Source of the DNA: Nitrospina sp.
GTDB lineage: Bacteria; Nitrospinota; Nitrospinia; Nitrospinales; VA-1
DNA: 64,000 nt
Assembly: GCA_018673915.1 (NCBI GenBank)
Contig: JABHBK010000069.1
Span: 9,272 to 73,271 of the forward strand
Direction of reading: 5' to 3'
Shown here: one piece after another, positions 23,399-32,937 of the stretch
Numbering within the stretch: the stretch's first letter is position 1
How the letters are laid out: every line of letters starts with the position of its first letter
Made by a program: the position numbers and the translations under genes
Notes under the pieces: model-generated
The model's database searches: none
What the model saw: the letters and a program-made list of their open reading frames with translations, nothing else
What the model was told of the DNA's origin: nothing

Positions 23399-24076
23399 CT
23401 ACTTATACATGAGGGAAACTAATTGAGAGCGAGCGTGAACTCGAAACTTGGAATATATCTTCTTAAGATGGTCTTTGACGGTGTGATGACTCAAGTCTAA
23501 CATTTTGGCTATCTCCTTGTCGCTCAGGCCTTCACAAATCAGACGGGCAACATCAGCTTCCCGGCTTGTCAATCCGGCTTCCTGCATTAAGTATTTTGTA
23601 TGCTCTTCAAGTTTGACTTCACCTTCCACCTGATGGGATCGAACCCTTCCCGAGTCTTGAGATTCAAGGATTTTTAAATTTTCCCTTGCCCGGAAGGAAA
23701 GTGTTTTCATGATAGCCATCAAGACATCAGGACTCGCAGATAATTTAGTCTGAAATTGTTCCTGTGTAATTTCCAACAACAGGCTGGGTACCGCTGATTT
23801 AACGGTGGCAGAACGGGGTTGGGATTCAATCAATGCCATCTCTCCCAGATAATCTCCTTTTGTTCTACGCGCAATCTCTATTCCATTTTTGGAAACTATC
23901 AACTCCCCGGAAAGTATGACATACATGGAGCGACCCTCTTCCCCATCTGAAAACAAAACCGCTCCTACATCCAGATCCCTCAACTGACATTCAGAGGCCA
24001 AGCATTCCAGTGTATCCGTGGAAGCCTTTGTTAAAAAATCAATTTTTCTCAGAAAATCTAAATTTTTATTTTCCAC
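23399..24076 (-). CDS. Cyclic-nucleotide-binding domain fused to LuxR-type HTH regulator
   Basis: GDYLGEMALIESQPRSATV phosphate-binding cassette; LTSREADV...GLSDKEIA..L.LS..TVK.H...IY.K. Confidence 0.9.
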   Translation of the reverse strand: MENKNLDFLRKIDFLTKASTDTLECLASECQLRDLDVGAVLFSDGEEGRSMYVILSGELIVSKNGIEIARRTKGDYLGEMALIESQPRSATVKSAVPSLLLEITQEQFQTKLSASPDVLMAIMKTLSFRARENLKILESQDSGRVRSHQVEGEVKLEEHTKYLMQEAGLTSREADVARLICEGLSDKEIAKMLDLSHHTVKDHLKKIYSKFRVHARSQLVSLMYK

Positions 24077-24169
24077 ACTTCGCCTTATTCGTCTGAGATT
24101 TTCATCTGCTCAAAACAGTAGTCCCCCGCAGAATTATAACACTATTTGGCATAGGGCAATTAACTTCAA

Positions 24170-25654
24170 TTAATAAAAAAAATTGAATTTCAATGTTAGA
24201 AGATTTTGTTTGGAGTCAACCGATACTAAATTTGAATTGTTGAGGTTGTATTGAAAGTCGAGATCAATGTTCAGGAACTCTAAAACCGGATGAGTAATTG
24301 TGAATTGGACTGTTTGTTTTTCATCCCGCCTATTCTTTCCAATACTTTCCGTAACATTTTCATAAAGCAATAGGTTGTACAAGTAGGAAAGCTGAAATTT
24401 CGTTTTATCTGGACCAGAGAAATTATACCCCGCGCTGATGAGATTCCCGACATAGTCAAATTCACTTCCCTTCGTATTTTCATCATAATACCTGTAAGTC
24501 ACGAATGCGTACGCCTTGCTCTCCGCGAAAAACAGGTATTGGTCAAAACCGATGGAAACATTGAGGGCATTACGCAATTCGTCCCCTAAAAAGGTGGTCT
24601 CTGAAATGACTGCACTAATATTGGTGTAGAGTTCGGGTTGAAGCGAGAAACCAATACGCGGGACAACACTGTGAGAGGTCAGGTAATCCTTTTCATCTAA
24701 GAAACTGTAGTTATAGTAGTAGTCTAGTCCGGCGTCCCAGTTTTTATCATTATGAGTCCCCCCCAGCGAAAAGGTGTTGGATATATAATTAAACTCAGCC
24801 GCGTCTGTCCAGGCATTCTGGTAATAATCATATCCCAATCGGAGCTCGACAATAGGGGTAGAATAGAATTTGTAACCTGTCGACAACTCAAAGGTAGCCG
24901 CCGTATCGGATTGGTTGGAAACGATATCCTGGCTGGTCACTGACACGTTATCGTCATATTGAAATCCTTGCTTGGCTAAGAACCACCAGTTTTTTTTGCT
25001 TTTACTTGTTTTCTCTCCTAATTCATTCAACAGGATTTCAACCTGATCGGCGGTTTCCGATTCCGGATTCTTTTCCAATGCCATGTTCAGCGCAAACTTA
25101 GCGTCTTCTTTCTGCCCTAATTCAAAATAGGCCAGCCCAATTTGAAACAGGGCTAATTGCTCAAGGTCAGGGTCCAAACTTAATACGGTTTGAAAATAAA
25201 TGAGAGATTCCTTGTATTGTTCTTTTTGCTGCAAGGTAAAACCTAGATATAAATAGGCGGAGGCATCTTGAGGATCTAGATCAATGGATTTTTTCAATGC
25301 CTCGAGAGCCAGGTCACTGGATTCAAGATTAAAATAAACGATACCAAGATTACGGTGGGCACCACTATATGCGGGGTCCAGCTCAAGGACCTTTTTAAAA
25401 GGTGCAACCGCTTCAGTATTTTTTTCAGCTTTAAGGAAGGTCAGACCCCGATAATAATGCGCCTCAATATTGGAAGGATCTTTGGCCAAAACCTTTGAGA
25501 ATTCACTGAGGGCCTGGTCAAACTTAGCCTCATTATAAAATTGCAAACCACGGATTATAGAGGGGGCGCTGGCTTCCTGGGCTTGAATATTATTCAGGCA
25601 GAAGAACAGTGAAAGAAATAGAAATGAGAAGAATTTCTGCACAATAAAAGGCAA
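24170..25654 (-). CDS. TPR-repeat outer-membrane beta-barrel protein (Slam/DUF560-like architecture)
   Basis: Signal peptide, about 5 TPRs, GFQYDDNV barrel start, amphipathic strands, C-terminal aromatic beta-signal LKFNFFY. Confidence 0.8.
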   Translation of the reverse strand: MPFIVQKFFSFLFLSLFFCLNNIQAQEASAPSIIRGLQFYNEAKFDQALSEFSKVLAKDPSNIEAHYYRGLTFLKAEKNTEAVAPFKKVLELDPAYSGAHRNLGIVYFNLESSDLALEALKKSIDLDPQDASAYLYLGFTLQQKEQYKESLIYFQTVLSLDPDLEQLALFQIGLAYFELGQKEDAKFALNMALEKNPESETADQVEILLNELGEKTSKSKKNWWFLAKQGFQYDDNVSVTSQDIVSNQSDTAATFELSTGYKFYSTPIVELRLGYDYYQNAWTDAAEFNYISNTFSLGGTHNDKNWDAGLDYYYNYSFLDEKDYLTSHSVVPRIGFSLQPELYTNISAVISETTFLGDELRNALNVSIGFDQYLFFAESKAYAFVTYRYYDENTKGSEFDYVGNLISAGYNFSGPDKTKFQLSYLYNLLLYENVTESIGKNRRDEKQTVQFTITHPVLEFLNIDLDFQYNLNNSNLVSVDSKQNLLTLKFNFFY

Positions 25655-25887
25655 TTAAAGGTGAAACAAGGATATTACCTATAATTTTTGTATAAATCCA
25701 ATATTAATCAGTGAGTTGGGGTTTTTAATTGCTTATTATTTAGGCAGGCTTGGTGATTAGGAGGATTGGTGCAAATGCTTTAGGGGACCCACTAACTAAA
25801 AAAATAGGCCATTCTATTTAAAGAATGACCCATTTCATTAAAATTCCAATTATTTTGGTAGGCGCAACGAGCAAAGCTATAAGCCCG

Positions 25888-27342
25888 CTAACTGGGAGGT
25901 CCGCCTCCTTTACCAGGGGGAGGTCCACCGCCGCCACCGGGATTACCACCACCGGGATTACCACGCGGTATAGTGCTGGTATCAGGCCTGCCCGGCCTTA
26001 TGCCTACAGGTGGTTTGTGTCCACCTCCTGGGCCTCTTGCAATTCTTTCTCTTACTGGGGGTGGATTTATTCCACCTTTAGGTCCTTTTAGTCCTGATCC
26101 TTTGGGTCCTTTGGGTCCTTTGGCGGTGACAAGTTTACCGCCGCCGCCAGTACCTTTTCCTCCTCTTTCAATTCTATCTGAGGCGTTTCCAAGAAATGAA
26201 CCCGTGGTCGCAACATTTGCTGTTTTTCTTGTAACGGTGGTGGAGGTTTTACCTTTCTTTGCTGGAGGCCCCTTTTGTTTATCTGCCTGCTTCATCAAAC
26301 CAGCCGGCAAGTTCCCTGCCTCAGCCATTTTCAGGAGCCCTGGGGGGAAAGTTCCATTTTTGGCCATCGCCAGTAATCCAGGTGGAAGCGCATCGTTCGC
26401 TGCCAAGTCAACTATAAGCGGAGGAAGATTCTGAATATCGGACACCACACCATTTTTCAAAACACCCAGCATTTTCCCCTTGGTAAGTACCGATTGCGGT
26501 CCCAGGCCTCCGCCGGAAAGCTTCGGGGCAGTATCGATACTACCTTCAATATTAATGAAAGTAGTCTTGCCATTTGGCTGAACCGTCACCACAAATTCTG
26601 TTCCCCGCACTCCCGCCACAGCGGTGGGCGTCACTACCTTGAAGGCCGAACCCTTCGATTTACCTTTAGTAACCACAAACCGCACAGTTCCCAAAGCTAC
26701 ATTCACCACAGTTTGCCGCAGATCTTTTTCGGGATCATATATATGCTTTTTAATATTGACGGAAGCATTTTCTCCTAGGGTCAATGAACTCTTATCATCA
26801 AAGGTAAAAGTGGCTTTTGATTCCGGCTTGGTTTTTATATGGTCATTCATAAAAACCGGGGAAGCCAACTTAACATCTGTTGAAGTATTCTGCCCTTTAT
26901 GAGTCTGAAGAATCTCCCCTTCAACCCCCGTGGTGATGCCAATGTCGGCTGATTTGACTATTCCCTGCTGTTTCAAAAATTGTTTTTGCTCAAATAAGTT
27001 TTTGCCTGGGGGTTCGCCGGATAATGCGTAGGTAACCCGAACAAATTCCTGATCGGTCAACGCGCCTTTTGCGTCCTTTTCACTCAGAACTTTAAATCCT
27101 CGAATTTTTAAAATTTTGGCAGTTTTAGCATACAAGTCCTCTTGCGATAACTCCGCATGATTTTTAGGAAGGAGGGGGTGATCAGGTTGATTTTGGGCAA
27201 CAATCGCCACAAACTCAGCCCTGCTGACCTGCGAGTTATTTTGGGTAGCTGACACGATAAACAGAAAAGAAAAACCTATTGCTACCAACAGGAAAAAGCG
27301 TGTCAACAACACTTTATTTTTGGTGAAAAATTTCGAACTCAT
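25888..27342 (-). CDS. FecR-domain protein with SLH-like N-terminus, 13-aa repeats and Gly/Pro/Lys tail
   Basis: D.IKT..ES.A...F.D.S.LTLGEN and VVTPTAVAGVRGTEF (FecR); N-terminal TM/signal segment. Confidence 0.85.
   Translation of the reverse strand: MSSKFFTKNKVLLTRFFLLVAIGFSFLFIVSATQNNSQVSRAEFVAIVAQNQPDHPLLPKNHAELSQEDLYAKTAKILKIRGFKVLSEKDAKGALTDQEFVRVTYALSGEPPGKNLFEQKQFLKQQGIVKSADIGITTGVEGEILQTHKGQNTSTDVKLASPVFMNDHIKTKPESKATFTFDDKSSLTLGENASVNIKKHIYDPEKDLRQTVVNVALGTVRFVVTKGKSKGSAFKVVTPTAVAGVRGTEFVVTVQPNGKTTFINIEGSIDTAPKLSGGGLGPQSVLTKGKMLGVLKNGVVSDIQNLPPLIVDLAANDALPPGLLAMAKNGTFPPGLLKMAEAGNLPAGLMKQADKQKGPPAKKGKTSTTVTRKTANVATTGSFLGNASDRIERGGKGTGGGGKLVTAKGPKGPKGSGLKGPKGGINPPPVRERIARGPGGGHKPPVGIRPGRPDTSTIPRGNPGGGNPGGGGGPPPGKGGGPPS
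26272..26427 (-). repeat. Four tandem 13-aa (39-nt) PPGL-type repeats in the FecR protein
   Basis: LPPLIVDLAANDA / LPPGLLAMAKNGT / FPPGLLKMAEAGN / LPAGLMKQADKQK. Confidence 0.75.
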
Positions 27343-27365
27343 GACTCACTCCTTAACTTTCTACT

Positions 27366-29495
27366 TCACAAATCTTTTTGAAGTAAAAGTTTCAGTTTTT
27401 CCGGTGACAACGGTTTACCAACAAAATAACCTTGAGCCCAGTCACATTCAGTATGCTCCAATAATTTCTTTTGTTCAATCGTTTCCACTCCCTTTGCAAC
27501 CGTCTTCAAGTTCAAGCTTTTCCCAATGCCTATAATCGTGTTAGTGATGGTGGAATTAATCCCCGCAGAGAGACCTCGAATCAGTTTAGGATCAATATTC
27601 AAGGTATTTAAAGGGATACGGGCGAGATTATTTAATGAAGACAGTCCCATGCCAAAATTATCCAAAGCCAGCTTGGAGCCAAAGTCGTGAAGATCCATTA
27701 AGTTTTTATGCGCTGGAGTTTGTTGCAAAGCTATTTCAGGTATTTCAAACTCAAACATATTCGGTTCCAGACTAAAGTTACTCAGGCAACTCTCAATTTT
27801 TTCCGCCAACTTTCCCTGAAGCAACTGGGTTTGACTGAGGTTGATGGAAACAGGTACCAAAGGGATCCCTTCCTGTTTCCAGGCTTGAATTTGTTTACAT
27901 ACGGACTGCATCACCCAATCTCCTATCGAAACTATCAAACCGCTGTCCTCGGCTACAGGAAGAAATTCAGCAGGAAGCACCAATCCTCTGTCAGGATCCT
28001 TCATCCTTAAAAAGACTTCAAGCCTTTGGTATTCACCGGTTTTGATATCAATTTTTGGTTGATAGTCTAATTGGAAATCATCATTCTCAAGCGTTCGCCC
28101 AATAAGGGTCTTCAACTCTAATCGGTTATGGGCCAAAGAAAGCATTTTAGGATCATGCACAAAATACGAGTTTTTTCCCTGCTCTTTCGCACGGTACATC
28201 GCCGTATCCGCACATTTAAACAGCGTTTCTACATCCTTGCCATCGTTGGGATAAAGTGCGATTCCTATACTAAAGCTTGAATAAATTTCATGCGTATCAA
28301 TTTTGAATACAGGTTTGAGAGCTGAGATAATCCTTTCTGCCAACCGGGTGGAGTAGTTATCATCTTTCAAGCCAGTTAAAAGAATTACAAACTCATCGCC
28401 CCCAATCCTCGCCACCGAATCCTCACCACGCAATAAACTTGTCAAACGTTTGGCCACCTCTTTTAGCAACTCATCTCCAATAGAATGACCCAGAGAGTCG
28501 TTCACGGATTTGAAATCATCCATATCCAGAAACAATAAGGCAAAGTTTTGCTCATTCCGTTCTGCATGGGCAAGTGCCAAGGTGATGCGGTCATTGATCA
28601 TGTTGCGGTTGGGCAGCCCGGTCAAAGAATCGAAAAACGCCATGCGCTTTATTTTTGATTCCAACAGACGCGACTCTGACAAATCCTGAACTACGGCCAA
28701 CAAAGCCATCGTTTTGCTAAAAAGGACTAACTTTAATTTAACCTGTACCGGATAAACCGTTCCATCCTTTCTCTTTTGCAGAGCTTCAAAAACTTGAAGT
28801 AGTTTTTTTCCCGTTCGAAGCGGTTCTACAAACAACTCAAACTCTAAGAGAGACTGGTCTTCCCAAAATTCGTATAACGCTTTGCTACAAATCTGAGTTT
28901 TGCTGTAACCCAGGCTTCGGGAAGCAGCCGCGTTGGTTTGGGTAATCTTGTAGTTTTCAGTATCTAGAATGTAAGTTTCGTTGCTGGTGCCATCGAGTAT
29001 CTGTGAAAATTTCTCAGCATTATCTTCTGCCAAGGTCAATTCCCCCTTCATCTCGTCCATGACATCTAAATCTTTTCGGGACCTTACTGAAAGGGTTTTG
29101 AGAAGAGCAAACAGAGCTTGAGCTTGAAGATCAAATTCTTTATGAAATCTTTCTGCGGTAATTTCCAGCAATTGTGTTTGTGTTTCTGCTCGAATGGATG
29201 CAGACCGGGGCTCAGATTCTATCAAGCCCATTTCCCCGATGTATTCACTGGGTTTTCTTCTTGCGATCACTTTATTTTTTTTATATACCAGCAATTCCCC
29301 GGAAAGAATGATGTACATGGAGTTGGAAACATCCCCTTCTTCAAATAGCACTTCAAAAGGAGAGAGAGAAATTACCTTGCAAGAACGGGCCAGTTTTTCC
29401 AGAGTCTCATCAGAAAAAAAGCCGAGAAAATCGACGCCTCTTAACTGCTCCAATATTTTTACTTCATCCATTGCTAAGGTCATAACTTGATTCAC
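27366..29495 (-). CDS. cNMP-PAS-GGDEF-EAL(degenerate) protein
   Basis: GEMGLIESEPRSAS cassette, PAS (RKDGTVYPV), RGEDSVARIGGDEF, EAL-like domain with EVF/DNFGMG/AKGVE. Confidence 0.92.
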   Translation of the reverse strand: MNQVMTLAMDEVKILEQLRGVDFLGFFSDETLEKLARSCKVISLSPFEVLFEEGDVSNSMYIILSGELLVYKKNKVIARRKPSEYIGEMGLIESEPRSASIRAETQTQLLEITAERFHKEFDLQAQALFALLKTLSVRSRKDLDVMDEMKGELTLAEDNAEKFSQILDGTSNETYILDTENYKITQTNAAASRSLGYSKTQICSKALYEFWEDQSLLEFELFVEPLRTGKKLLQVFEALQKRKDGTVYPVQVKLKLVLFSKTMALLAVVQDLSESRLLESKIKRMAFFDSLTGLPNRNMINDRITLALAHAERNEQNFALLFLDMDDFKSVNDSLGHSIGDELLKEVAKRLTSLLRGEDSVARIGGDEFVILLTGLKDDNYSTRLAERIISALKPVFKIDTHEIYSSFSIGIALYPNDGKDVETLFKCADTAMYRAKEQGKNSYFVHDPKMLSLAHNRLELKTLIGRTLENDDFQLDYQPKIDIKTGEYQRLEVFLRMKDPDRGLVLPAEFLPVAEDSGLIVSIGDWVMQSVCKQIQAWKQEGIPLVPVSINLSQTQLLQGKLAEKIESCLSNFSLEPNMFEFEIPEIALQQTPAHKNLMDLHDFGSKLALDNFGMGLSSLNNLARIPLNTLNIDPKLIRGLSAGINSTITNTIIGIGKSLNLKTVAKGVETIEQKKLLEHTECDWAQGYFVGKPLSPEKLKLLLQKDL

Positions 29496-29792
29496 CTGGC
29501 TCTTGCTCCCTCTAACACAACTCTTTAACCTCTATGTTCTTATTGTTAAGCAAGATCGAATAATTTAAAACCCCCATAATCAGGGTATACATAAAAACCG
29601 ACCATATCCCCATACCAATAATCATTGTAATGCGCTACTTTATAAAGAAAAAATATACCACCCATCAAACTTTTGTACCAATTTTATTACATTTCTTAGA
29701 GCCACTATTGGAGTTCCTTGCCCTTGTTCAAATCAAAAACTTATTCAATAATGTGAAATAGGATTACACATACTCAAAAGGCATCTAATTAA

Positions 29793-32066
29793 TTGATCTT
29801 TTTAGCCAAAAAATATTCCTCTATTTCCTGCGGGTTACTGGTCACCGCACTTTGCTTGTTTATCTACAATCAATCCCCCTCTTCAATGGAGCCATTGGAG
29901 AATATTGTTCAAAACACCCACTTCAAATTGCGCGGTCCCCTCTCCCCCAACTCTGATGTCGTCATTGCAAAAATTGATGAGAAGAGTCTGGACACACTGG
30001 GTCGTTGGCCCTGGCCAAGACAAACTATGGCGAAGCTTGTTCAAAGACTTCATGAATATGAAGCAGAAGTAATTGGATTCGATATTATTTTTTCTTCGCC
30101 CCAGATTAATTCCGACCATGAGGCCTTAATAAAATTACAAAATATAATTAGTCCTACTCAGAACCCTGAAGCCGTAGAATATTTAAACCAATTATTGCGG
30201 GAAACAAATGCCGATATCCAGTTTTCCCAAGCTCTATCCAAAGGTTCCAAGTCTGTGTTGGGTTACTTCTTCCACTTTTCACCCGAGGGGCTGGAACATT
30301 TAACCCCTACCCAGCGACACCTATATTTTGAAGATATAAAAACATCCCGGTTCAATGGGTTTCTTCGTTCTAGTGAAAACCTCAAACTATCTAACCTGAC
30401 TTTCCCCACTGCATTTGCAGTCGAGTCTAATATTTCATCCATTTCGCGAACAGCCAGCCGATCCGGTTATCTGAGTTTTGATCTTGAATCCGACGGATCG
30501 GTAAAACAACTTCCACTCATTGTCCGATATGTTGACAATGGGAAGGATCATTATTTCCCTCCATTTTCTCTAAGGATTCTCGAACAATATCTACAAGGCA
30601 CCCTTCTCTTCAGGGTCAATGAATTGGGGATGGAAGAAGTCATTCTGGATAACGATAATCCTATTGTTATCCCAACTAACTCAAAAGGAGAAATGGAGGT
30701 CAATTATTTGGGCCCGCGGAAAACATTCCCTGGAATTTCCATTAGCGATCTTTTAGATAAGAATTTAAGTAGTGCAATCAAAGAACGAGTACGGAATAAA
30801 ATAGTGCTAATAGGTGCCACAGCAACTGCTCTTGAAGATTTAAAGCCGACCCCTTTTGATCCGGCCTTACCAGGAGTAGAAATTCACGCAACGATTATCG
30901 ACAATATTTTAAGCCATCGTTTTCTCACTAAGCCTTCCTGGACAGCGGTTGTCGATTCTCTATATTTATTGTTGATAGGAGTAGTCTTAACTGTGGTGTA
31001 CTCCCGCATCAAACCTCTGATGAGTCTCATGGTCTGGTCAGTATGTGTCTGCGCTTCTTTTTATTTAAGCCATTGGCTATTCATTAACAAGGGATTCTGG
31101 TTAACGGATGTCTATCCATTAATAGAGAATACTGGGATTGCCGCCTTGATCATGCTGGATCGTTTTGTTAAAGAGGAAAAGCAAAAACTTTTTATCAAAA
31201 AGGTTTTTGGTCAATATCTCTCACCCCGGGTCGTAAAAGAACTGATCAATGATCCTTCAAAACTAAAGCTGGGAGGAGAACAAAAAGAACTTACGGCTCT
31301 ATTCACCGATCTGGAAGGATTCACCACTTTCTCTGAAAAGCTTGGCGCTACAGAACTGGTTGACCTTTTAAATACCTACCTCACCGAAATGACGGACATC
31401 CTTCTGCAATACGATGGCACCTTGGATAGATATGATGGCGATGCAATTAAAGCGTTTTTTGGGGCTCCGATTTATTTCGATGATCATGCAAAACGGGCCT
31501 GCTGGGTATGTATAGATATGCAAAACAAGCTCAAAGATATGCGTGTGAAATTTAAAGAAGAAGGCAAGCCAGAATTACTCATGCGGGTAGGCCTCAATAC
31601 CGGATCAATGGTAATCGGAAACATGGGCTCAACCACCCGCATGATGTATGGAATGAACGGCGACTCGGTTAATCTATGCGCCCGTCTCGAAGGAGCCAAC
31701 AAACAATACGGAACTTACTCTCTGATCAGCGAGTTCACTTACCAGGCCGCCAAAGAATTCATCGAGGTCCGGAAATTAGATATTATTCGTGTCGTAGGCC
31801 GTGCAACACCTATTAATATTTATGAGCTTTTAGGAAAACGGGGAGAGATAGATGATCTCCTAAAAAAAGCTTTACCCGATTATAACCAGGGCTTGAAAAG
31901 TTATCAAAATCGCGAATGGACCGAAGCCAAAAGATATTTTGAAAATGCCTTGAAAATACGTCCCGAAGATGGCCCCTCAAAAATTTATTTGAAGAGATGC
32001 GAAAATTTCATCCTTCAACCTCCCGCCAAAGACTGGGATGGCGTTTTCAATCTCAGCACAAAATAA
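29793..32066 (+). CDS. CHASE2-domain class III nucleotide cyclase with C-terminal TPR
   Basis: IDEKSL..LGRWPWPR, GFDIIF, PGVEIHA (CHASE2); 3 TMs; FTDLEGFT, GDA, GLNTG, GDSVNLCARLEG; TPR tail. Confidence 0.93.
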   Translation: MIFLAKKYSSISCGLLVTALCLFIYNQSPSSMEPLENIVQNTHFKLRGPLSPNSDVVIAKIDEKSLDTLGRWPWPRQTMAKLVQRLHEYEAEVIGFDIIFSSPQINSDHEALIKLQNIISPTQNPEAVEYLNQLLRETNADIQFSQALSKGSKSVLGYFFHFSPEGLEHLTPTQRHLYFEDIKTSRFNGFLRSSENLKLSNLTFPTAFAVESNISSISRTASRSGYLSFDLESDGSVKQLPLIVRYVDNGKDHYFPPFSLRILEQYLQGTLLFRVNELGMEEVILDNDNPIVIPTNSKGEMEVNYLGPRKTFPGISISDLLDKNLSSAIKERVRNKIVLIGATATALEDLKPTPFDPALPGVEIHATIIDNILSHRFLTKPSWTAVVDSLYLLLIGVVLTVVYSRIKPLMSLMVWSVCVCASFYLSHWLFINKGFWLTDVYPLIENTGIAALIMLDRFVKEEKQKLFIKKVFGQYLSPRVVKELINDPSKLKLGGEQKELTALFTDLEGFTTFSEKLGATELVDLLNTYLTEMTDILLQYDGTLDRYDGDAIKAFFGAPIYFDDHAKRACWVCIDMQNKLKDMRVKFKEEGKPELLMRVGLNTGSMVIGNMGSTTRMMYGMNGDSVNLCARLEGANKQYGTYSLISEFTYQAAKEFIEVRKLDIIRVVGRATPINIYELLGKRGEIDDLLKKALPDYNQGLKSYQNREWTEAKRYFENALKIRPEDGPSKIYLKRCENFILQPPAKDWDGVFNLSTK

Positions 32067-32076
32067 TACACAAATT

Positions 32077-32937
32077 TTAATACAGGCATTCAGGTTGTGG
32101 TGAAGTCAGATAACTATATCTTGGCATAAAAAAACGTTTAAGCGCATCTCTGATCCAATTATTTGCTTCAATGGCCTTATCAACTTCGTCTTGACCCATT
32201 TCTTTTTTGATATTTTTCCCGCCAAAATAAAAGCTGACTAACTTTGTTTTACTGTTTTCAATGGCTTTGTAAACATTCTTTAAGTTGTGCAATTTATCAT
32301 CGACAAAGATAATTTTTTTGTAGTTTAGATCGTTATACCTTAAAAATTCCGTCAAAGATTTTCCTTTATCGGCACCCGCAACCATCATCAACCCTGCCCT
32401 GTAAACAATTTCAGCTTTTCTATTTTCAGCATGAATGATAGCAGACCAATCATTCTGAGAAGGGAGTCGATCATTTCTAGAAAAAAAATATTTATTTCGC
32501 AACAACTCTCTTTCAGTTGCAGATCGCTGTTTATTTGACCTTGCTGTGAGCAGCATCACATGGTTATTTTGAATTGCATTAAACCTGTCATTCAAATTGG
32601 GTTCGGTAGGAACCATGGTGCCAATTTCGTAGAGCATGCTTGCCACATCAAACCTGCAAGGAAGTAATTGGTGCTTCGTTTGGTTATTTTTGTACCACTG
32701 AACCCATCTTTCACTTCCTAATAATTGTTCTGAAGTTAGCAGAGTGTCATCAATATCAAACACTATTAGAAGTTCATTTTGTTTTGTTTGGGAATTTTTT
32801 ATTTCACTAAAAACAGGATTGAAGTTATCTACCGCTATGGGGTTAAAATCTGTTTTTTGGTTTGATAAACTAACGGTTCCAGCGCAGGAGACCAGAAAAG
32901 TTATAGAAAAAATAAGGAAATAGATTAGTCGATTCAC
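32077..32937 (-). CDS. DUF2608-like HAD-superfamily lipoprotein
   Basis: Lipobox LVSC, VFDIDDTLL, LTAR, KG, IIFVDD. Confidence 0.75.
   Translation of the reverse strand: MNRLIYFLIFSITFLVSCAGTVSLSNQKTDFNPIAVDNFNPVFSEIKNSQTKQNELLIVFDIDDTLLTSEQLLGSERWVQWYKNNQTKHQLLPCRFDVASMLYEIGTMVPTEPNLNDRFNAIQNNHVMLLTARSNKQRSATERELLRNKYFFSRNDRLPSQNDWSAIIHAENRKAEIVYRAGLMMVAGADKGKSLTEFLRYNDLNYKKIIFVDDKLHNLKNVYKAIENSKTKLVSFYFGGKNIKKEMGQDEVDKAIEANNWIRDALKRFFMPRYSYLTSPQPECLY

What the first reader, a model, noticed from the sequence alone, without database searches (positions are those of the whole stretch)
23399..32066. Candidate self-contained trans-envelope cyclic-nucleotide relay: OM barrel -> FecR -> CHASE2 cyclase -> two cNMP effectors
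Seen: four co-oriented genes (cNMP-PAS-GGDEF-EAL, FecR protein 23 bp later, TPR/beta-barrel, cNMP-LuxR) diverge across 297 bp from a CHASE2 class III cyclase, and the block sits among housekeeping genes. No ECF sigma factor or TonB receptor is present, although these are the usual FecR partners. Known: CHASE2 cyclases co-occur with FecR/TPR-barrel genes, and in Sinorhizobium meliloti the OM protein NsrA acts with a CHASE2 cyclase and the Crp-like Clr. Inference: an outside signal passes barrel -> periplasmic FecR -> CHASE2. The second messenger is then read in the same locus by a LuxR-type (not Crp-type) transcription factor and by a diguanylate cyclase. I do not recognise this combination of outputs as described.
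Basis: partly seen in the sequence, partly recalled or inferred. Interest (0 to 1): 0.85.

Follow-up and report, generated by a model that had tools for sequence, protein, structure and literature searches.

The report
Nitrospinota envelope-linked cyclic-nucleotide signalling gene cluster
A marine nitrite-oxidiser genome carries a conserved cluster in which a membrane cyclase sits beside a secreted FecR-type protein, an outer-membrane barrel and two cyclic-nucleotide-binding output proteins; the core is already described elsewhere, but the outputs and the swappable FecR-barrel pair are new details.

Summary
The five genes are real and the domain calls are right. The organism is a Nitrospinota MAG, judged from record titles of relatives.

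- **Conservation:** across 120 Nitrospinota genomes there are 40 loci with the same cyclase type. A long FecR protein lies within 6 kb at 36 of 40, and the barrel within 10 kb at 27 of 40.
- **Loss:** five relatives lost the block by deletion.
- **Recombination:** barrel plus FecR were exchanged as one cassette.
- **Outputs:** the GGDEF domain looks active and the EAL domain is degenerate. The cNMP-LuxR fusion occurs in two genera only.

No contact was shown, the signal direction is unknown, and "self-contained" is overstated: the genome has 24 cNMP-domain matches and 3 cyclases. The CHASE2 cyclase + FecR + TPR core is already reported in Campylobacterota (PMC9239204).

Verdict: a new variant of a known kind, of moderate interest.

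The parts
23399..24076 (-). cNMP-binding domain fused to a LuxR/GerE helix-turn-helix (225 aa). Predicted cyclic-nucleotide-dependent transcription factor.
   Evidence: Pfam cNMP_binding residues 35-112 and GerE residues 169-222. The phosphate-binding cassette GEMALIESQPRSAT is read from the translation. Full-length orthologues occur in 16 of 120 Nitrospinota genomes, in two genera only, and 14 of them lie next to the barrel gene.
24170..25654 (-). Secreted protein with about six TPR repeats (residues ~33-211) and a C-terminal 14-stranded outer-membrane beta-barrel (residues 223-493).
   Evidence: TPR Pfam hits. AF2 model pLDDT 87.5. CymA Z 22.2 and OmpG Z 20.9. N-terminal signal-peptide-like segment and C-terminal ...FNFFY, read by eye. 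PF04575 SlipAM hits 4 of 19 relatives and TPR_Slam hits 18 of 19 at E<=1.
25801..25836 (-). Terminator-like hairpin (15-pair stem followed by a T run) just after the FecR stop codon, in the 233-bp gap before the barrel gene.
   Evidence: Consensus scan. The total number of such sites in the region does not exceed that in shuffled sequence, so this is only a hint that GGDEF-EAL + FecR form one transcription unit.
25888..27342 (-). Secreted FecR-domain protein. Layout: signal-peptide-like N-terminus, conserved helical subdomain (~38-135, possibly SLH-like), FecR beta domain (~136-300), then a hypervariable, strongly basic Gly/Pro/Lys-rich tail (~306-484).
   Evidence: Pfam FecR residues 167-268. 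Alignment A5. Model residues 164-296 match the PupR cell-surface-signalling domain, Z 13.2. Residues 34-130 match SLH domains, Z 8.5, 7.6 and 5.6. The tail has net charge +16 to +58 in 12 of 12 orthologues.
27366..29495 (-). cNMP-binding - PAS - GGDEF - EAL protein (709 aa). Predicted cNMP-regulated diguanylate cyclase with an intact I-site and a non-catalytic EAL domain.
   Evidence: Pfam. GGDEF, RxxD and the other cyclase motifs are intact. The EAL domain reads EVF, DNFG (for DDFG), N for the catalytic Lys and K for the EGVE Glu, the last three identical in 5 of 5 orthologues. Shown by alignment to MorA and 5m3c and to orthologues.
29496..29792 (.). Divergent 297-bp promoter region. It holds a conserved palindrome TTATTCAATAA at 29741-29751, 42 bp upstream of the cyclase start codon.
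   Evidence: Alignment of five relatives. The palindrome is found upstream of the cyclase in five species of the same subclade (G000, G014, G005, G020, G009); G022 has a variant elsewhere and the other loci held have none. There are 7 genome copies against 4.5 expected, so it is a local site and not a regulon motif.
29793..32066 (+). CHASE2 - 3 TM - class III nucleotide cyclase - C-terminal TPR (757 aa).
   Evidence: Pfam CHASE2 and Guanylate_cyc. Metal Asp residues and the Asn and Arg of the catalytic set are present. The substrate Lys position is Arg and the second specificity position is Gly.

Best explanation
The locus is a Nitrospinota-wide envelope-to-cytoplasm cyclic-nucleotide signalling module.

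Sensor side:
- An inner-membrane class III cyclase carries a periplasmic CHASE2 domain.
- I infer that it works with a secreted FecR-domain protein, and in most loci also with an outer-membrane TPR + 14-strand barrel.
- FecR and the barrel form a co-adapted pair. I propose they set or relay the envelope-side input to CHASE2. The direction and the contacts are inferred, not shown.

Output side:
- The cyclic nucleotide is most likely cAMP. cGMP is not excluded, because the specificity residues are Arg/Gly instead of Lys/Thr.
- It is read by cNMP-binding proteins encoded alongside.
- One is a cNMP-PAS-GGDEF protein that should make c-di-GMP. Its GGDEF domain and I-site are intact and its EAL domain is catalytically dead.
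- The other, found in this genus and one more, is a cNMP-LuxR transcription factor.
- The module is part of a larger cNMP network in the cell and is not closed.
For: Domains and catalytic motifs.

Linkage. Of 40 loci with this cyclase type (CHASE2 >=42% identical, E<=1e-90) in 34 of 120 genomes:
- 36 have the long FecR within 6 kb;
- 27 have the barrel within 10 kb on the same contig.
I counted these by hand from the coordinates. A ~710-750-aa cNMP protein lies beside the cyclase in genomes of three families.

Readers. Other families replace LuxR with cNMP-PAS-histidine-kinase or cNMP-only proteins at the same core.

Loss. Five relatives keep only deletion scars between the same flanking genes. 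Three of them have a LuxR fragment abutting a cyclase C-terminal fragment.

FecR-barrel coupling. Against its closest relative G014 (flanking genes 94-96% identical):
- CHASE2 89%, cyclase domain 87%, LuxR 90%, GGDEF-EAL 88%;
- but FecR 71% and barrel 38%.
Both FecR and barrel group with G022, G003, G015 and G016 instead. AU tests reject the G000+G014 clade (p 6e-64 and 1.5e-95). The DNA break points at ~24100 and ~27400 frame exactly these two genes.

Charge. The FecR tail is basic in 12 of 12 orthologues, while the TPR domain, the barrel and the CHASE2 domain are acidic.

RNA libraries. Contigs at least 95% alike (79 of 82 at 99% or more) from four marine metatranscriptome runs lie on parts of all five genes. 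One bridges the GGDEF-EAL/FecR junction.

Literature (passages read):
- CHASE2 cyclase + FecR + TPR + phosphodiesterase clusters in Campylobacterota (PMC9239204).
- LysM-FecR + CHASE2 histidine kinase operons in Burkholderia (PMC5192318).
- The outer-membrane barrel NsrA is needed for signalling to CHASE2 cyclases in S. meliloti (PMC13001267, PMC7529298).
Against: - No contact between any two of the proteins has been shown.
- In the complete genome G023 the cyclase (1.234 Mb), FecR (1.355 Mb) and barrel (5 kb) are unlinked.
- Six cyclase-FecR pairs have no barrel nearby: G071 C39, G069 C71, G073 C54, G068 C1:151k, G072 C1 and G074 C90.
- 6 of 15 barrel loci from the species collection have neither FecR nor CHASE2. 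They sit beside FGE-sulfatase, sulfatase, TPR or LytB genes.
- The cassette swap shows that CHASE2 does not co-vary with FecR and the barrel in this genome, so any CHASE2-FecR fit is not allele-specific.
- The genome has 24 cNMP_binding matches and 3 cyclases. Four other cNMP modules are nearly as close to the local ones as those are to each other. The readers therefore need not listen to this cyclase alone.
- Linkage among related genomes is not independent evidence, and one deletion of adjacent genes does not prove shared function.
- RNA-library contigs may include DNA.
Confidence: 0.6

Rival explanations
1. The TPR-barrel is a Slam-like (DUF560, type XI secretion-like) translocon and the FecR protein is its cargo. 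All or part of FecR, for example the basic disordered tail, is passed to or through the outer membrane. CHASE2 would then sense whether FecR is retained in the periplasm, as an envelope-integrity check comparable in logic to RcsF, or FecR would act at the cell surface.
For: - The architecture is TPR + 14 strands.
- TPR_Slam hits 18 of 19 relatives and SlipAM hits 4 of 19, best E 4.6e-9.
- Barrel and FecR are inherited and exchanged as a pair.
- Barrel homologues sit beside varied other secreted-type genes in 6 of 15 loci, as expected of a translocon with changing cargo.
- The FecR tail keeps its charge but not its sequence in 12 of 12 orthologues.
- NCBIfam's best matches for the FecR protein are Leptospira FecR-domain lipoproteins and surface adhesins (LipL45, Lsa33, Lsa19), all far below cut-off.
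Against: - The window's own barrel gives no SlipAM hit at E<=1.
- Known Slam cargo carries a C-terminal beta-barrel domain (recalled). FecR ends in a disordered tail instead.
- Six cyclase-FecR pairs have no adjacent barrel.
- Surface exposure was not tested.
Confidence: 0.2
2. The genes are neighbours without a relay. CHASE2 senses its own, unknown ligand directly. FecR and the barrel serve a separate envelope function, structural or adhesive. The cNMP readers respond to the cell's pooled cNMP from all three cyclases.
For: - The three genes are dispersed in G023.
- Barrel homologues occur outside signalling contexts.
- There is a large cNMP reader repertoire and there are two further cyclases.
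- CHASE2 and FecR/barrel have different histories in this genome.
Against: - FecR is linked at 36 of 40 loci across four families.
- Short FecR-domain genes also lie 2-5 kb from many cyclases of the paralogous type.
- FecR + CHASE2 linkage recurs in Beta- and Gammaproteobacteria and in Campylobacterota with different output domains (PMC5192318, PMC9239204).
- cNMP readers recur at the same core with changing output domains.
Confidence: 0.15
3. The messenger is not cAMP. This cyclase clade carries Gly at the second specificity position, as the guanylyl cyclase Cya2 does, and in this genus Arg replaces the adenine-specifying Lys. The product could be cGMP or a mix, giving a channel separate from the canonical Lys/Thr paralogue in the same genome.
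For: - Alignment to CyaB (3r5g: DKFVGD, YTIIG) and Cya2 (2w01: DEFMGD, YGVVG).
- Gly in 12 of 12 orthologues against Thr in 9 of 9 paralogues.
- Arg in 8 of 8 orthologues of the genus against Lys in the other 13 sequences.
- The roles of these positions are recalled from the cyclase literature.
Against: - More distant orthologues keep Lys, which normally specifies ATP.
- No Glu, the hallmark of guanylyl cyclases, is present.
- Nothing in the cNMP domains distinguishes cAMP from cGMP (RSAT and RSAS cassettes).
Confidence: 0.2

Closest known systems
Campylobacterota cluster of CHASE2 adenylate cyclase, cAMP phosphodiesterase, FecR-domain protein and TPR protein (PMC9239204, passages read; its Fig. 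4A and Table S6 were not visible to me)
   Same: A CHASE2 class III cyclase linked to a FecR-domain protein and a TPR protein, proposed to act in one pathway and to spread by gene transfer.
   Different: - No phosphodiesterase gene sits in this locus.
- Two cNMP readers sit there instead (a GGDEF protein and LuxR).
- The TPR protein is shown here to carry a 14-strand barrel.
- Sequence-level relatedness to the Campylobacterota genes was not tested.
Sinorhizobium meliloti NsrA - CyaD1/CyaD2/CyaK - Clr pathway (PMC13001267 and PMC7529298, passages read; the NsrA paper PMC5952392 is not held)
   Same: An outer-membrane beta-barrel protein is needed for signal input to inner-membrane CHASE2 cyclases, and the cNMP is read by a transcription factor. 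The proposed signal there is a basic, unfolded protein that binds acidic barrel loops. Here a basic disordered tail is encoded beside an acidic TPR-barrel.
   Different: - NsrA is about 1200 aa, with its barrel at residues 600-1200 (figure legend). The protein here is 494 aa with a 280-aa barrel.
- The genes there are not described as one locus.
- Homology between the two barrels was not tested.
LysM-FecR + CHASE2 histidine kinase operon of Burkholderia and Pseudomonas (PMC5192318, passages read)
   Same: A secreted FecR-domain protein carrying an extra N-terminal module is encoded next to a CHASE2 sensor. That module is LysM there, which binds cell wall, and possibly SLH-like here.
   Different: The output there is a two-component system rather than a cyclase. 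There is no barrel. The N-terminal module is a different domain.
FecA-FecR-FecI / PupB-PupR cell-surface signalling
   Same: The FecR beta domain has the fold of the PupR periplasmic signalling domain (6ovm, Z 13.2, rmsd 2.6, 121 aligned). The logic is outer-membrane protein to periplasmic FecR to inner membrane.
   Different: - There is no TonB-dependent transducer and no ECF sigma factor on the contig.
- The protein has a signal-peptide-like N-terminus in place of a cytoplasmic anti-sigma domain plus a TM helix.
Bd1971 of Bdellovibrio (cNMP-EAL) and Lcd1 of Leptospira (GAF-GGDEF) (PMC6717892, passages read)
   Same: A cyclic mononucleotide sensor domain is fused directly to a c-di-GMP enzyme, so one messenger controls the other.
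   Different: - The cNMP domain here sits in front of PAS-GGDEF with a dead EAL, so the predicted effect is on synthesis, not breakdown.
- Bd1971 has an active EAL and no GGDEF.
- Lcd1 senses cAMP through a GAF domain.
Slam / DUF560 outer-membrane translocons (type XI secretion)
   Same: An N-terminal periplasmic TPR region followed by a 14-strand barrel, with weak Pfam matches in relatives.
   Different: The window's protein does not match PF04575. The neighbouring gene is not a typical Slam cargo.

Membership tests
CHASE2-class III nucleotide cyclase | Periplasmic CHASE2 domain between an N-terminal TM segment and further TM segments | tested here: met
   PF05226 at 1.8e-56 over residues 18-396. 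Hydrophobic segments before residue 28 and after residue 383 were read by eye.
CHASE2-class III nucleotide cyclase | Class III catalytic residues: two metal Asp, a transition-state Asn and Arg | tested here: met
   FTDLEGFT, YDGDAI and VNLCARLE align to CyaB 3r5g and Cya2 2w01 and are conserved in 21 of 21 sequences.
CHASE2-class III nucleotide cyclase | Canonical adenine-specifying pair (Lys plus Asp or Thr) | tested here: not met
   The pair is Arg/Gly here. It is Lys/Gly in more distant orthologues and Lys/Thr in the paralogues. The meaning of these positions is recalled.
Fec-type cell-surface signalling (FecA/FecR/FecI) | ECF sigma factor and TonB-dependent transducer encoded alongside | tested here: not met
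   No PF04542 or PF00593 match on contig C32.
Fec-type cell-surface signalling (FecA/FecR/FecI) | FecR with an N-terminal cytoplasmic anti-sigma domain and one TM helix | tested here: not met
   The N-terminus is a 35-residue signal-peptide-like segment, followed by conserved small-residue cleavage-type motifs (VSA/SAS/SVS). No signal-peptide predictor was run.
Fec-type cell-surface signalling (FecA/FecR/FecI) | FecR periplasmic beta domain | tested here: met
   PF04773 at 4.9e-15. Matches 6ovm_R Z 13.2 and 4m0h Z 12.0. The model is of modest confidence there (pLDDT ~50-75).
Slam / DUF560 (type XI secretion) translocon | N-terminal TPR region plus 14-strand barrel | tested here: met
   AF2 model with 12 helices and 14 strands. 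CymA and OmpG are the best barrel matches.
Slam / DUF560 (type XI secretion) translocon | Match to the PF04575 SlipAM barrel model | tested here: inconclusive
   The window's protein gives no hit at E<=1. 4 of 19 relatives hit, best 4.6e-9. TPR_Slam hits 18 of 19.
Slam / DUF560 (type XI secretion) translocon | Adjacent cargo with a C-terminal beta-barrel handle domain | tested here: not met
   The adjacent FecR protein ends in a disordered basic tail. The cargo rule is recalled.
CRP/FNR transcription factors (the name databases give the 225-aa protein) | C-terminal CRP-type winged helix-turn-helix | tested here: not met
   The C-terminal domain is GerE/LuxR, PF00196 at 9.5e-16. No Crp HTH family appears in the list.
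Active EAL c-di-GMP phosphodiesterase | Conserved catalytic set: E of EAL, N, ExxE, DD, K, E of EGVE, Q | tested here: not met
   DDFG reads DNFG, the Lys is Asn and the EGVE Glu is Lys, in 5 of 5 orthologues. The paralogous type keeps all of them. Residue roles are recalled.
Active GGDEF diguanylate cyclase | GGDEF motif, metal- and substrate-binding Asp/Asn, RxxD I-site | tested here: met
   DMDDFKSVND, RGED-5 residues-GGDEF and YRAKEQGKN are present in 5 of 5 orthologues.
SLH (S-layer homology) cell-wall-binding domain | SLH fold and motif | tested here: inconclusive
   Structural matches 6bt4 Z 8.5, 6cwc Z 7.6 and 6qvm Z 5.6, with the next unrelated row at Z 4.4. The Pfam SLH model hits 0 of 12 members even at E<=10.
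NsrA-type outer-membrane receptor of S. meliloti | Sequence or fold homology to NsrA | not tested
Only sizes could be compared: ~1200 aa there (PMC7529298 legend) and 494 aa here.

The most novel reading that the evidence does not exclude
The FecR protein and the Slam-like TPR-barrel form an exchangeable, fast-evolving two-gene "probe" of the outer envelope. The barrel threads or exports the FecR protein's basic disordered tail, while an SLH-like module holds the FecR protein on the cell wall. CHASE2 reads whether this assembly is intact or occupied. That would finally give the CHASE2 domain a defined protein ligand. The cyclase, with its unusual Arg/Gly specificity pair, would emit a messenger kept apart from the canonical paralogue. 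That messenger would switch on c-di-GMP synthesis and a LuxR-type regulon in parallel.
Probability: 0.12. Interest if true: 0.8.

Novelty: new variant of a known kind. Interest (0 to 1): 0.5.

Why it matters
I found no ligand or mechanism for the CHASE2 domain in my literature searches. PMC5192318 (2016) states that the factors CHASE2 domains recognise are unknown. This phylum offers a clean natural data set for the question. There are 40 linked loci. The FecR-barrel pair recombines as a unit. The cyclase has a canonical paralogue for comparison, and the readers are encoded on the spot.

If the relay is real, three things would follow:
- CHASE2 sensors would be shown to be regulated by a protein partner, not by a small molecule.
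- Envelope state would be tied to c-di-GMP in marine nitrite oxidisers, which matter for the ocean nitrogen cycle.
- A cNMP-dependent LuxR-type regulator would be added to the known cNMP effectors.

If it is not real, the locus is an ordinary, if well conserved, signalling gene neighbourhood.

Tried and rejected
**Complex prediction.** I ran the CHASE2 periplasmic domain (residues 28-382, alignment A4) against the FecR globular part (residues 36-325, alignment A5). The score was 0.00 in two runs, below the mark, and the controls were not run. This is no verdict either way. The FecR-TPR pair could not be tried because the cap is one job.

**Foldseek and Pfam.**
- Foldseek on the barrel model mainly returned TPR proteins, BcsC and 14-18-strand porins, and no Slam structure.
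- The Pfam SLH model does not hit the FecR proteins.
- NCBIfam gave only far-below-cut-off names.
- Rfam found nothing in the window at gathering scores.

**The palindrome.** It is not enriched genome-wide (7 copies against 4.5 expected). It is absent from more distant LuxR-bearing loci such as L043, L054 and L019, so I do not claim it as the LuxR site.

**Promoter and terminator scan.** Counts do not exceed those in shuffled sequence.

**RNA libraries.** The metatranscriptome contigs left some bins uncovered, including 31958-32665 in all four runs. I draw nothing from that. Only contigs were available, so strand, transcript ends and expression levels are unknown.

**Literature.**
- Searches for a CHASE2/FecR mechanism found only the papers cited.
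- Searches for a characterised cNMP-LuxR fusion returned nothing on such a protein in the rows listed (48 papers, 15 listed; 210 papers, 15 listed).
- The search on Nitrospina signalling was too loose to be useful (26,288 papers, none of the 12 listed mentions Nitrospina).
- PMC11139211 held none of my four search terms. PMC2447327 gave one irrelevant passage.
Fig. 4A and Table S6 of PMC9239204 and the figures of the NsrA papers may hold gene-level details that I could not see.

**Caveats on the counts and tests.**
- The Atlas lists a second cNMP+GerE cluster in Pseudomonadota at score 0.75. That is a lead only and was not followed.
- The linkage counts (36 of 40, 27 of 40, 14 of 16) were made by hand from printed coordinates, not by a script.
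- The clades tested were chosen after I had seen the identity table and the trees, so the p-values overstate the case.
- Rows left out of the trees: genomes outside genera g1 and g20; G003 from the CHASE2 tree (the gene is split over two contigs); G011 from the barrel tree (none found).

Full report
**What is there.** The window lies on contig C32 of a 3.15-Mb, 75-contig assembly that is 92% complete. Public records of its relatives are titled Nitrospina sp., Nitrospinaceae or Nitrospinota MAGs, so the organism is a marine nitrite-oxidiser lineage. Four co-oriented genes on the minus strand diverge across 297 bp from one gene on the plus strand:
- 23399-24076: cNMP-LuxR
- 24170-25654: TPR-barrel
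- 25888-27342: FecR protein
- 27366-29495: cNMP-PAS-GGDEF-EAL
- 29793-32066 (plus strand): CHASE2 class III cyclase

The barrel, which Pfam does not call, is confirmed by an AlphaFold2 model: pLDDT 87.5, with 12 TPR helices and then 14 strands. Its best barrel matches are the 14-stranded CymA (Z 22.2, rmsd 3.7, 267 aligned) and OmpG (Z 20.9). The flanks are housekeeping-type genes. No ECF sigma factor or TonB-dependent receptor lies on the contig.

**The parts in detail: the cyclase.** It has both metal-binding Asp residues and the Asn and Arg of the catalytic set. At the position of the adenine-specifying Lys (CyaB DKFVGD; Cya2 DEFMGD) it has Arg. At the second specificity position it has Gly, as in Cya2 (YGVVG), not the Thr of CyaB (YTIIG).
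- Gly is present in 12 of 12 orthologues and Thr in 9 of 9 paralogues.
- Arg is present in 8 of 8 orthologues of this genus and Lys in the other 13 sequences.

The meaning of these positions is recalled from the cyclase literature. The product is therefore probably cAMP, but that is not certain.

**The GGDEF-EAL protein.** Its GGDEF domain is complete and has an RxxD I-site. Its EAL domain has lost three catalytic residues: DDFG reads DNFG, the Lys is Asn and the EGVE Glu is Lys. These three substitutions are the same in 5 of 5 orthologues. A paralogous type has an intact EAL and a variable GGDEF (SGDEF, GGDDF). It is found beside the cyclase in G022 and G015 and at the loci of G038 and G029. 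The window's protein is therefore best read as a cNMP-regulated diguanylate cyclase.

**The cNMP domains.** Both have a canonical phosphate-binding cassette. They are each other's near-best match in the genome at 46% over 137 aa; one module on C57 matches the GGDEF-EAL module slightly better at 49%.

**The FecR protein.** It has four regions:
- A signal-peptide-like N-terminus.
- A conserved helical subdomain (residues 38-135).
- The FecR beta domain. In the model it matches the PupR cell-surface-signalling domain (6ovm, Z 13.2, rmsd 2.6, 121 aligned).
- A tail that is unalignable between orthologues yet strongly basic in 12 of 12 (net +16 to +58, pI 9.9-12.0).

The partner domains are acidic: TPR domain net -14, barrel -12, CHASE2 domain -8. 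The helical subdomain resembles SLH cell-wall-binding domains (6bt4 Z 8.5, 6cwc Z 7.6, 6qvm Z 5.6; next row Z 4.4). The model is only moderately confident (mean pLDDT 57, about 70-85 in that part), and the Pfam SLH model hits none of 12 members. I leave the SLH idea open.

**Conservation.** I scanned all 120 Nitrospinota species genomes held.
- The CHASE2 domain splits cleanly into an orthologous type (>=42% identity, E<=1e-90; 40 loci in 34 genomes), an intermediate set at 41% in class-level relatives (family f9), and paralogues at <=38%.
- Comparing printed coordinates by hand, the long-form FecR lies within 6 kb at 36 of the 40 loci. The exceptions are G020 and G090 (genes on different contigs), G060 (none found, 70% complete) and G023.
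- The barrel lies within 10 kb on the same contig at 27 of 40.
- A ~710-750-aa cNMP protein sits beside the cyclase in genomes of three families.
- Full-length cNMP-LuxR occurs in 16 of 120 genomes, one of them with an internal TGA. All are in genera g1 and g20, and 14 lie directly beside the barrel gene.
- Where LuxR is absent, other cNMP readers take its place at the same core: a cNMP-PAS-HisKA-HATPase-REC kinase (G038 and G024; the G024 copy is cut at the locus end) and a 173-aa cNMP-only protein.

**Loss within the genus.** G007, G013 and G019 keep a LuxR fragment (from residue ~41-47) abutting a cyclase C-terminal fragment (from residue ~664-679) between the same flanking genes. G002 and G001 keep only the cyclase remnant. 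The block is therefore dispensable and is lost as one piece.

**Evidence against a simple picture.**
- In the complete genome G023 the three envelope genes are far apart: cyclase at 1.234 Mb, FecR at 1.355 Mb and barrel at 5 kb.
- Six cyclase-FecR pairs have no barrel nearby.
- A barrel-anchored scan of the species collection gave 15 loci, 6 with neither FecR nor CHASE2. Their neighbours are FGE-sulfatase, sulfatase, TPR or LytB genes.
- The genome holds 24 cNMP_binding matches, 3 class III cyclases and a second FecR gene. The locus is not a closed circuit.

**A recombining FecR-barrel cassette.** G014 is the closest relative, with flanking genes 94-96% identical. The window's identities to G014 and to G022 are:

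| Part | vs G014 | vs G022 |
|---|---|---|
| CHASE2 domain | 89% | 60% |
| Cyclase domain | 87% | 84% |
| LuxR | 90% | 80% |
| GGDEF-EAL | 88% | 72% |
| FecR globular part | 71% | 89% |
| TPR domain | 61% | 71% |
| Barrel | 38% | 69% |

- In the trees, CHASE2 of G000 pairs with G014 (support 99). FecR and barrel of G000 fall in a clade with G022, G003, G015 and G016 (support 97 and 100).
- AU tests reject G000+G014 for FecR (p 6e-64) and for the barrel (p 1.5e-95). They reject the alternative grouping for CHASE2 (p 4e-6). The clades were named after I had seen the data.
- A sliding DNA comparison puts the break points at about 24100 and 27400, exactly around these two genes.

FecR and barrel thus travel and diverge together, and far faster than the cytoplasmic parts. 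The barrel is 38% identical within a genus, the same as between families. This is the strongest evidence here that the two act as a pair. It also shows that CHASE2 tolerates a change of partner allele.

**Expression.** Contigs from four marine or seawater metatranscriptome runs, all at least 95% alike to the window and 79 of 82 at 99% or more, lie on parts of all five genes. One 1198-nt contig bridges the GGDEF-EAL/FecR junction. These are assembled contigs from RNA libraries. They show presence, not strand or level, and DNA carry-over cannot be excluded.

**How it most likely works.**
- Shown: the domain content, the catalytic motifs, the linkage, the co-loss and the cassette behaviour.
- Inferred: the CHASE2 cyclase takes its input from the envelope through the secreted FecR protein, which is coupled to the TPR-barrel in the outer membrane. 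The cNMP then activates a diguanylate cyclase and a LuxR-type regulator encoded alongside.

I give this 0.6. The main rival (0.2) treats the barrel as a Slam-like translocon with FecR as its cargo. It rests on the TPR + 14-strand architecture, weak SlipAM and TPR_Slam matches in relatives and the barrel's varied neighbours elsewhere. A null reading of neighbours without a relay gets 0.15. The identity of the messenger is a separate open point.

**Comparison with what is known.** The core is not new.
- PMC9239204 (passages read) reports that most Campylobacterota CHASE2 cyclases sit in a cluster with a cAMP phosphodiesterase, a FecR-domain protein and a TPR protein.
- PMC5192318 (passages read) describes LysM-FecR + CHASE2 kinase operons.
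- In S. meliloti the outer-membrane barrel NsrA is required for signalling to CHASE2 cyclases (PMC13001267 and PMC7529298, passages read; the original NsrA paper is not held).
- Direct control of c-di-GMP enzymes by cAMP is known from Bd1971 and Lcd1 (PMC6717892, passages read).

As far as my searches show, the following are new:
- the cNMP-LuxR reader, which databases label Crp/Fnr although its DNA-binding domain is GerE;
- the GGDEF-active, EAL-dead form of the fused reader;
- the 14-strand, Slam-like nature of the TPR protein;
- the layout of the FecR protein;
- the Arg/Gly specificity pair;
- the recombining FecR-barrel cassette.

**Verdict.** This is a new variant of a known kind, with interest 0.5.

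Noticed in passing
G000 contig C26:8899-11127 (locus L024) and contig C34:5808-7088: A second CHASE2 cyclase (40% identical, canonical Lys/Thr pair) lies downstream of an 1137-aa DUF5649-repeat protein that reaches the contig end. The genome's second FecR gene lies on C34 beside a 1860-aa ORF cut by that contig's start. The two contigs may join into a FecR - giant repeat protein - cyclase locus. In many other genomes a short FecR-domain ORF (~275-283 aa) lies 2-5 kb from this paralogous cyclase type.
   Followed up: partly
window 29741-29751: A perfect palindrome TTATTCAATAA lies 42 bp upstream of the cyclase start. It is conserved at that spot in the closest subclade (G000, G014, G005, G020, G009), with a variant in G022, and is not enriched genome-wide. 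It is a candidate operator of unknown regulator.
   Followed up: partly
L048 (G007), L049 (G013), L050 (G019), L051 (G002), L052 (G001): Deletion scars of the whole block. A truncated LuxR gene abuts the last ~80-100 codons of the cyclase between the hexapeptide-transferase/NifS-like genes and ScpA. The 177-aa LuxR remnant of G007 is present in protein databases as a called gene (P0097).
   Followed up: yes
L017/L053 (G022), L018/L054 (G015), L021/L039 (G038), L022/L040 (G029): A second type of cNMP-PAS-GGDEF-EAL gene (~40% identical) has an intact EAL and a variable GGDEF motif (SGDEF, GGDDF). It is a likely cNMP-regulated phosphodiesterase, paired in some genomes with the cyclase-type copy.
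   Followed up: partly
L039:483-2570 (G038), L023:10481-12001 (G024), L021:7639-8160 (G038): Other Nitrospinota families place cNMP-PAS-HisKA-HATPase(-REC) kinases and a 173-aa cNMP-only protein next to the same cyclase-FecR-barrel core. G038 and G029 also carry two tandem FecR genes.
   Followed up: partly
L033:1703-2749, L034:4688-5563, L042:1857-3419; also L024:5074-7605 in the window's own genome: Barrel homologues outside the signalling context sit next to FGE-sulfatase or sulfatase genes. An FGE-sulfatase/TPR/transglutaminase-like fusion also lies near the paralogous cyclase on C26. This is a recurring but unexplained association.
   Followed up: no
G000 contigs C57:92798-93220, C27:147125-147541, C36:34744-35163 and C36:35865-36272: Four further cNMP modules of the same subfamily as the two in the locus (38-49% identical). 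The C27 and C57 copies lie within ~3-9 kb of sigma-70-family genes.
   Followed up: no
window 32077-32937: The DUF2608/HAD-like gene between the cyclase and ScpA is present in G014 but absent in G005, G020, G015 and G016, where ScpA directly follows the cyclase.
   Followed up: no
G117:C32:396-1791, G118:C19:8315-9710, G119:C201:8322-9711: In class-level relatives (family f9) a distant barrel homologue (24-26% identical) lies directly beside a FecR-domain ORF, in the opposite gene order. The barrel-FecR pairing therefore seems older than the family.
   Followed up: no
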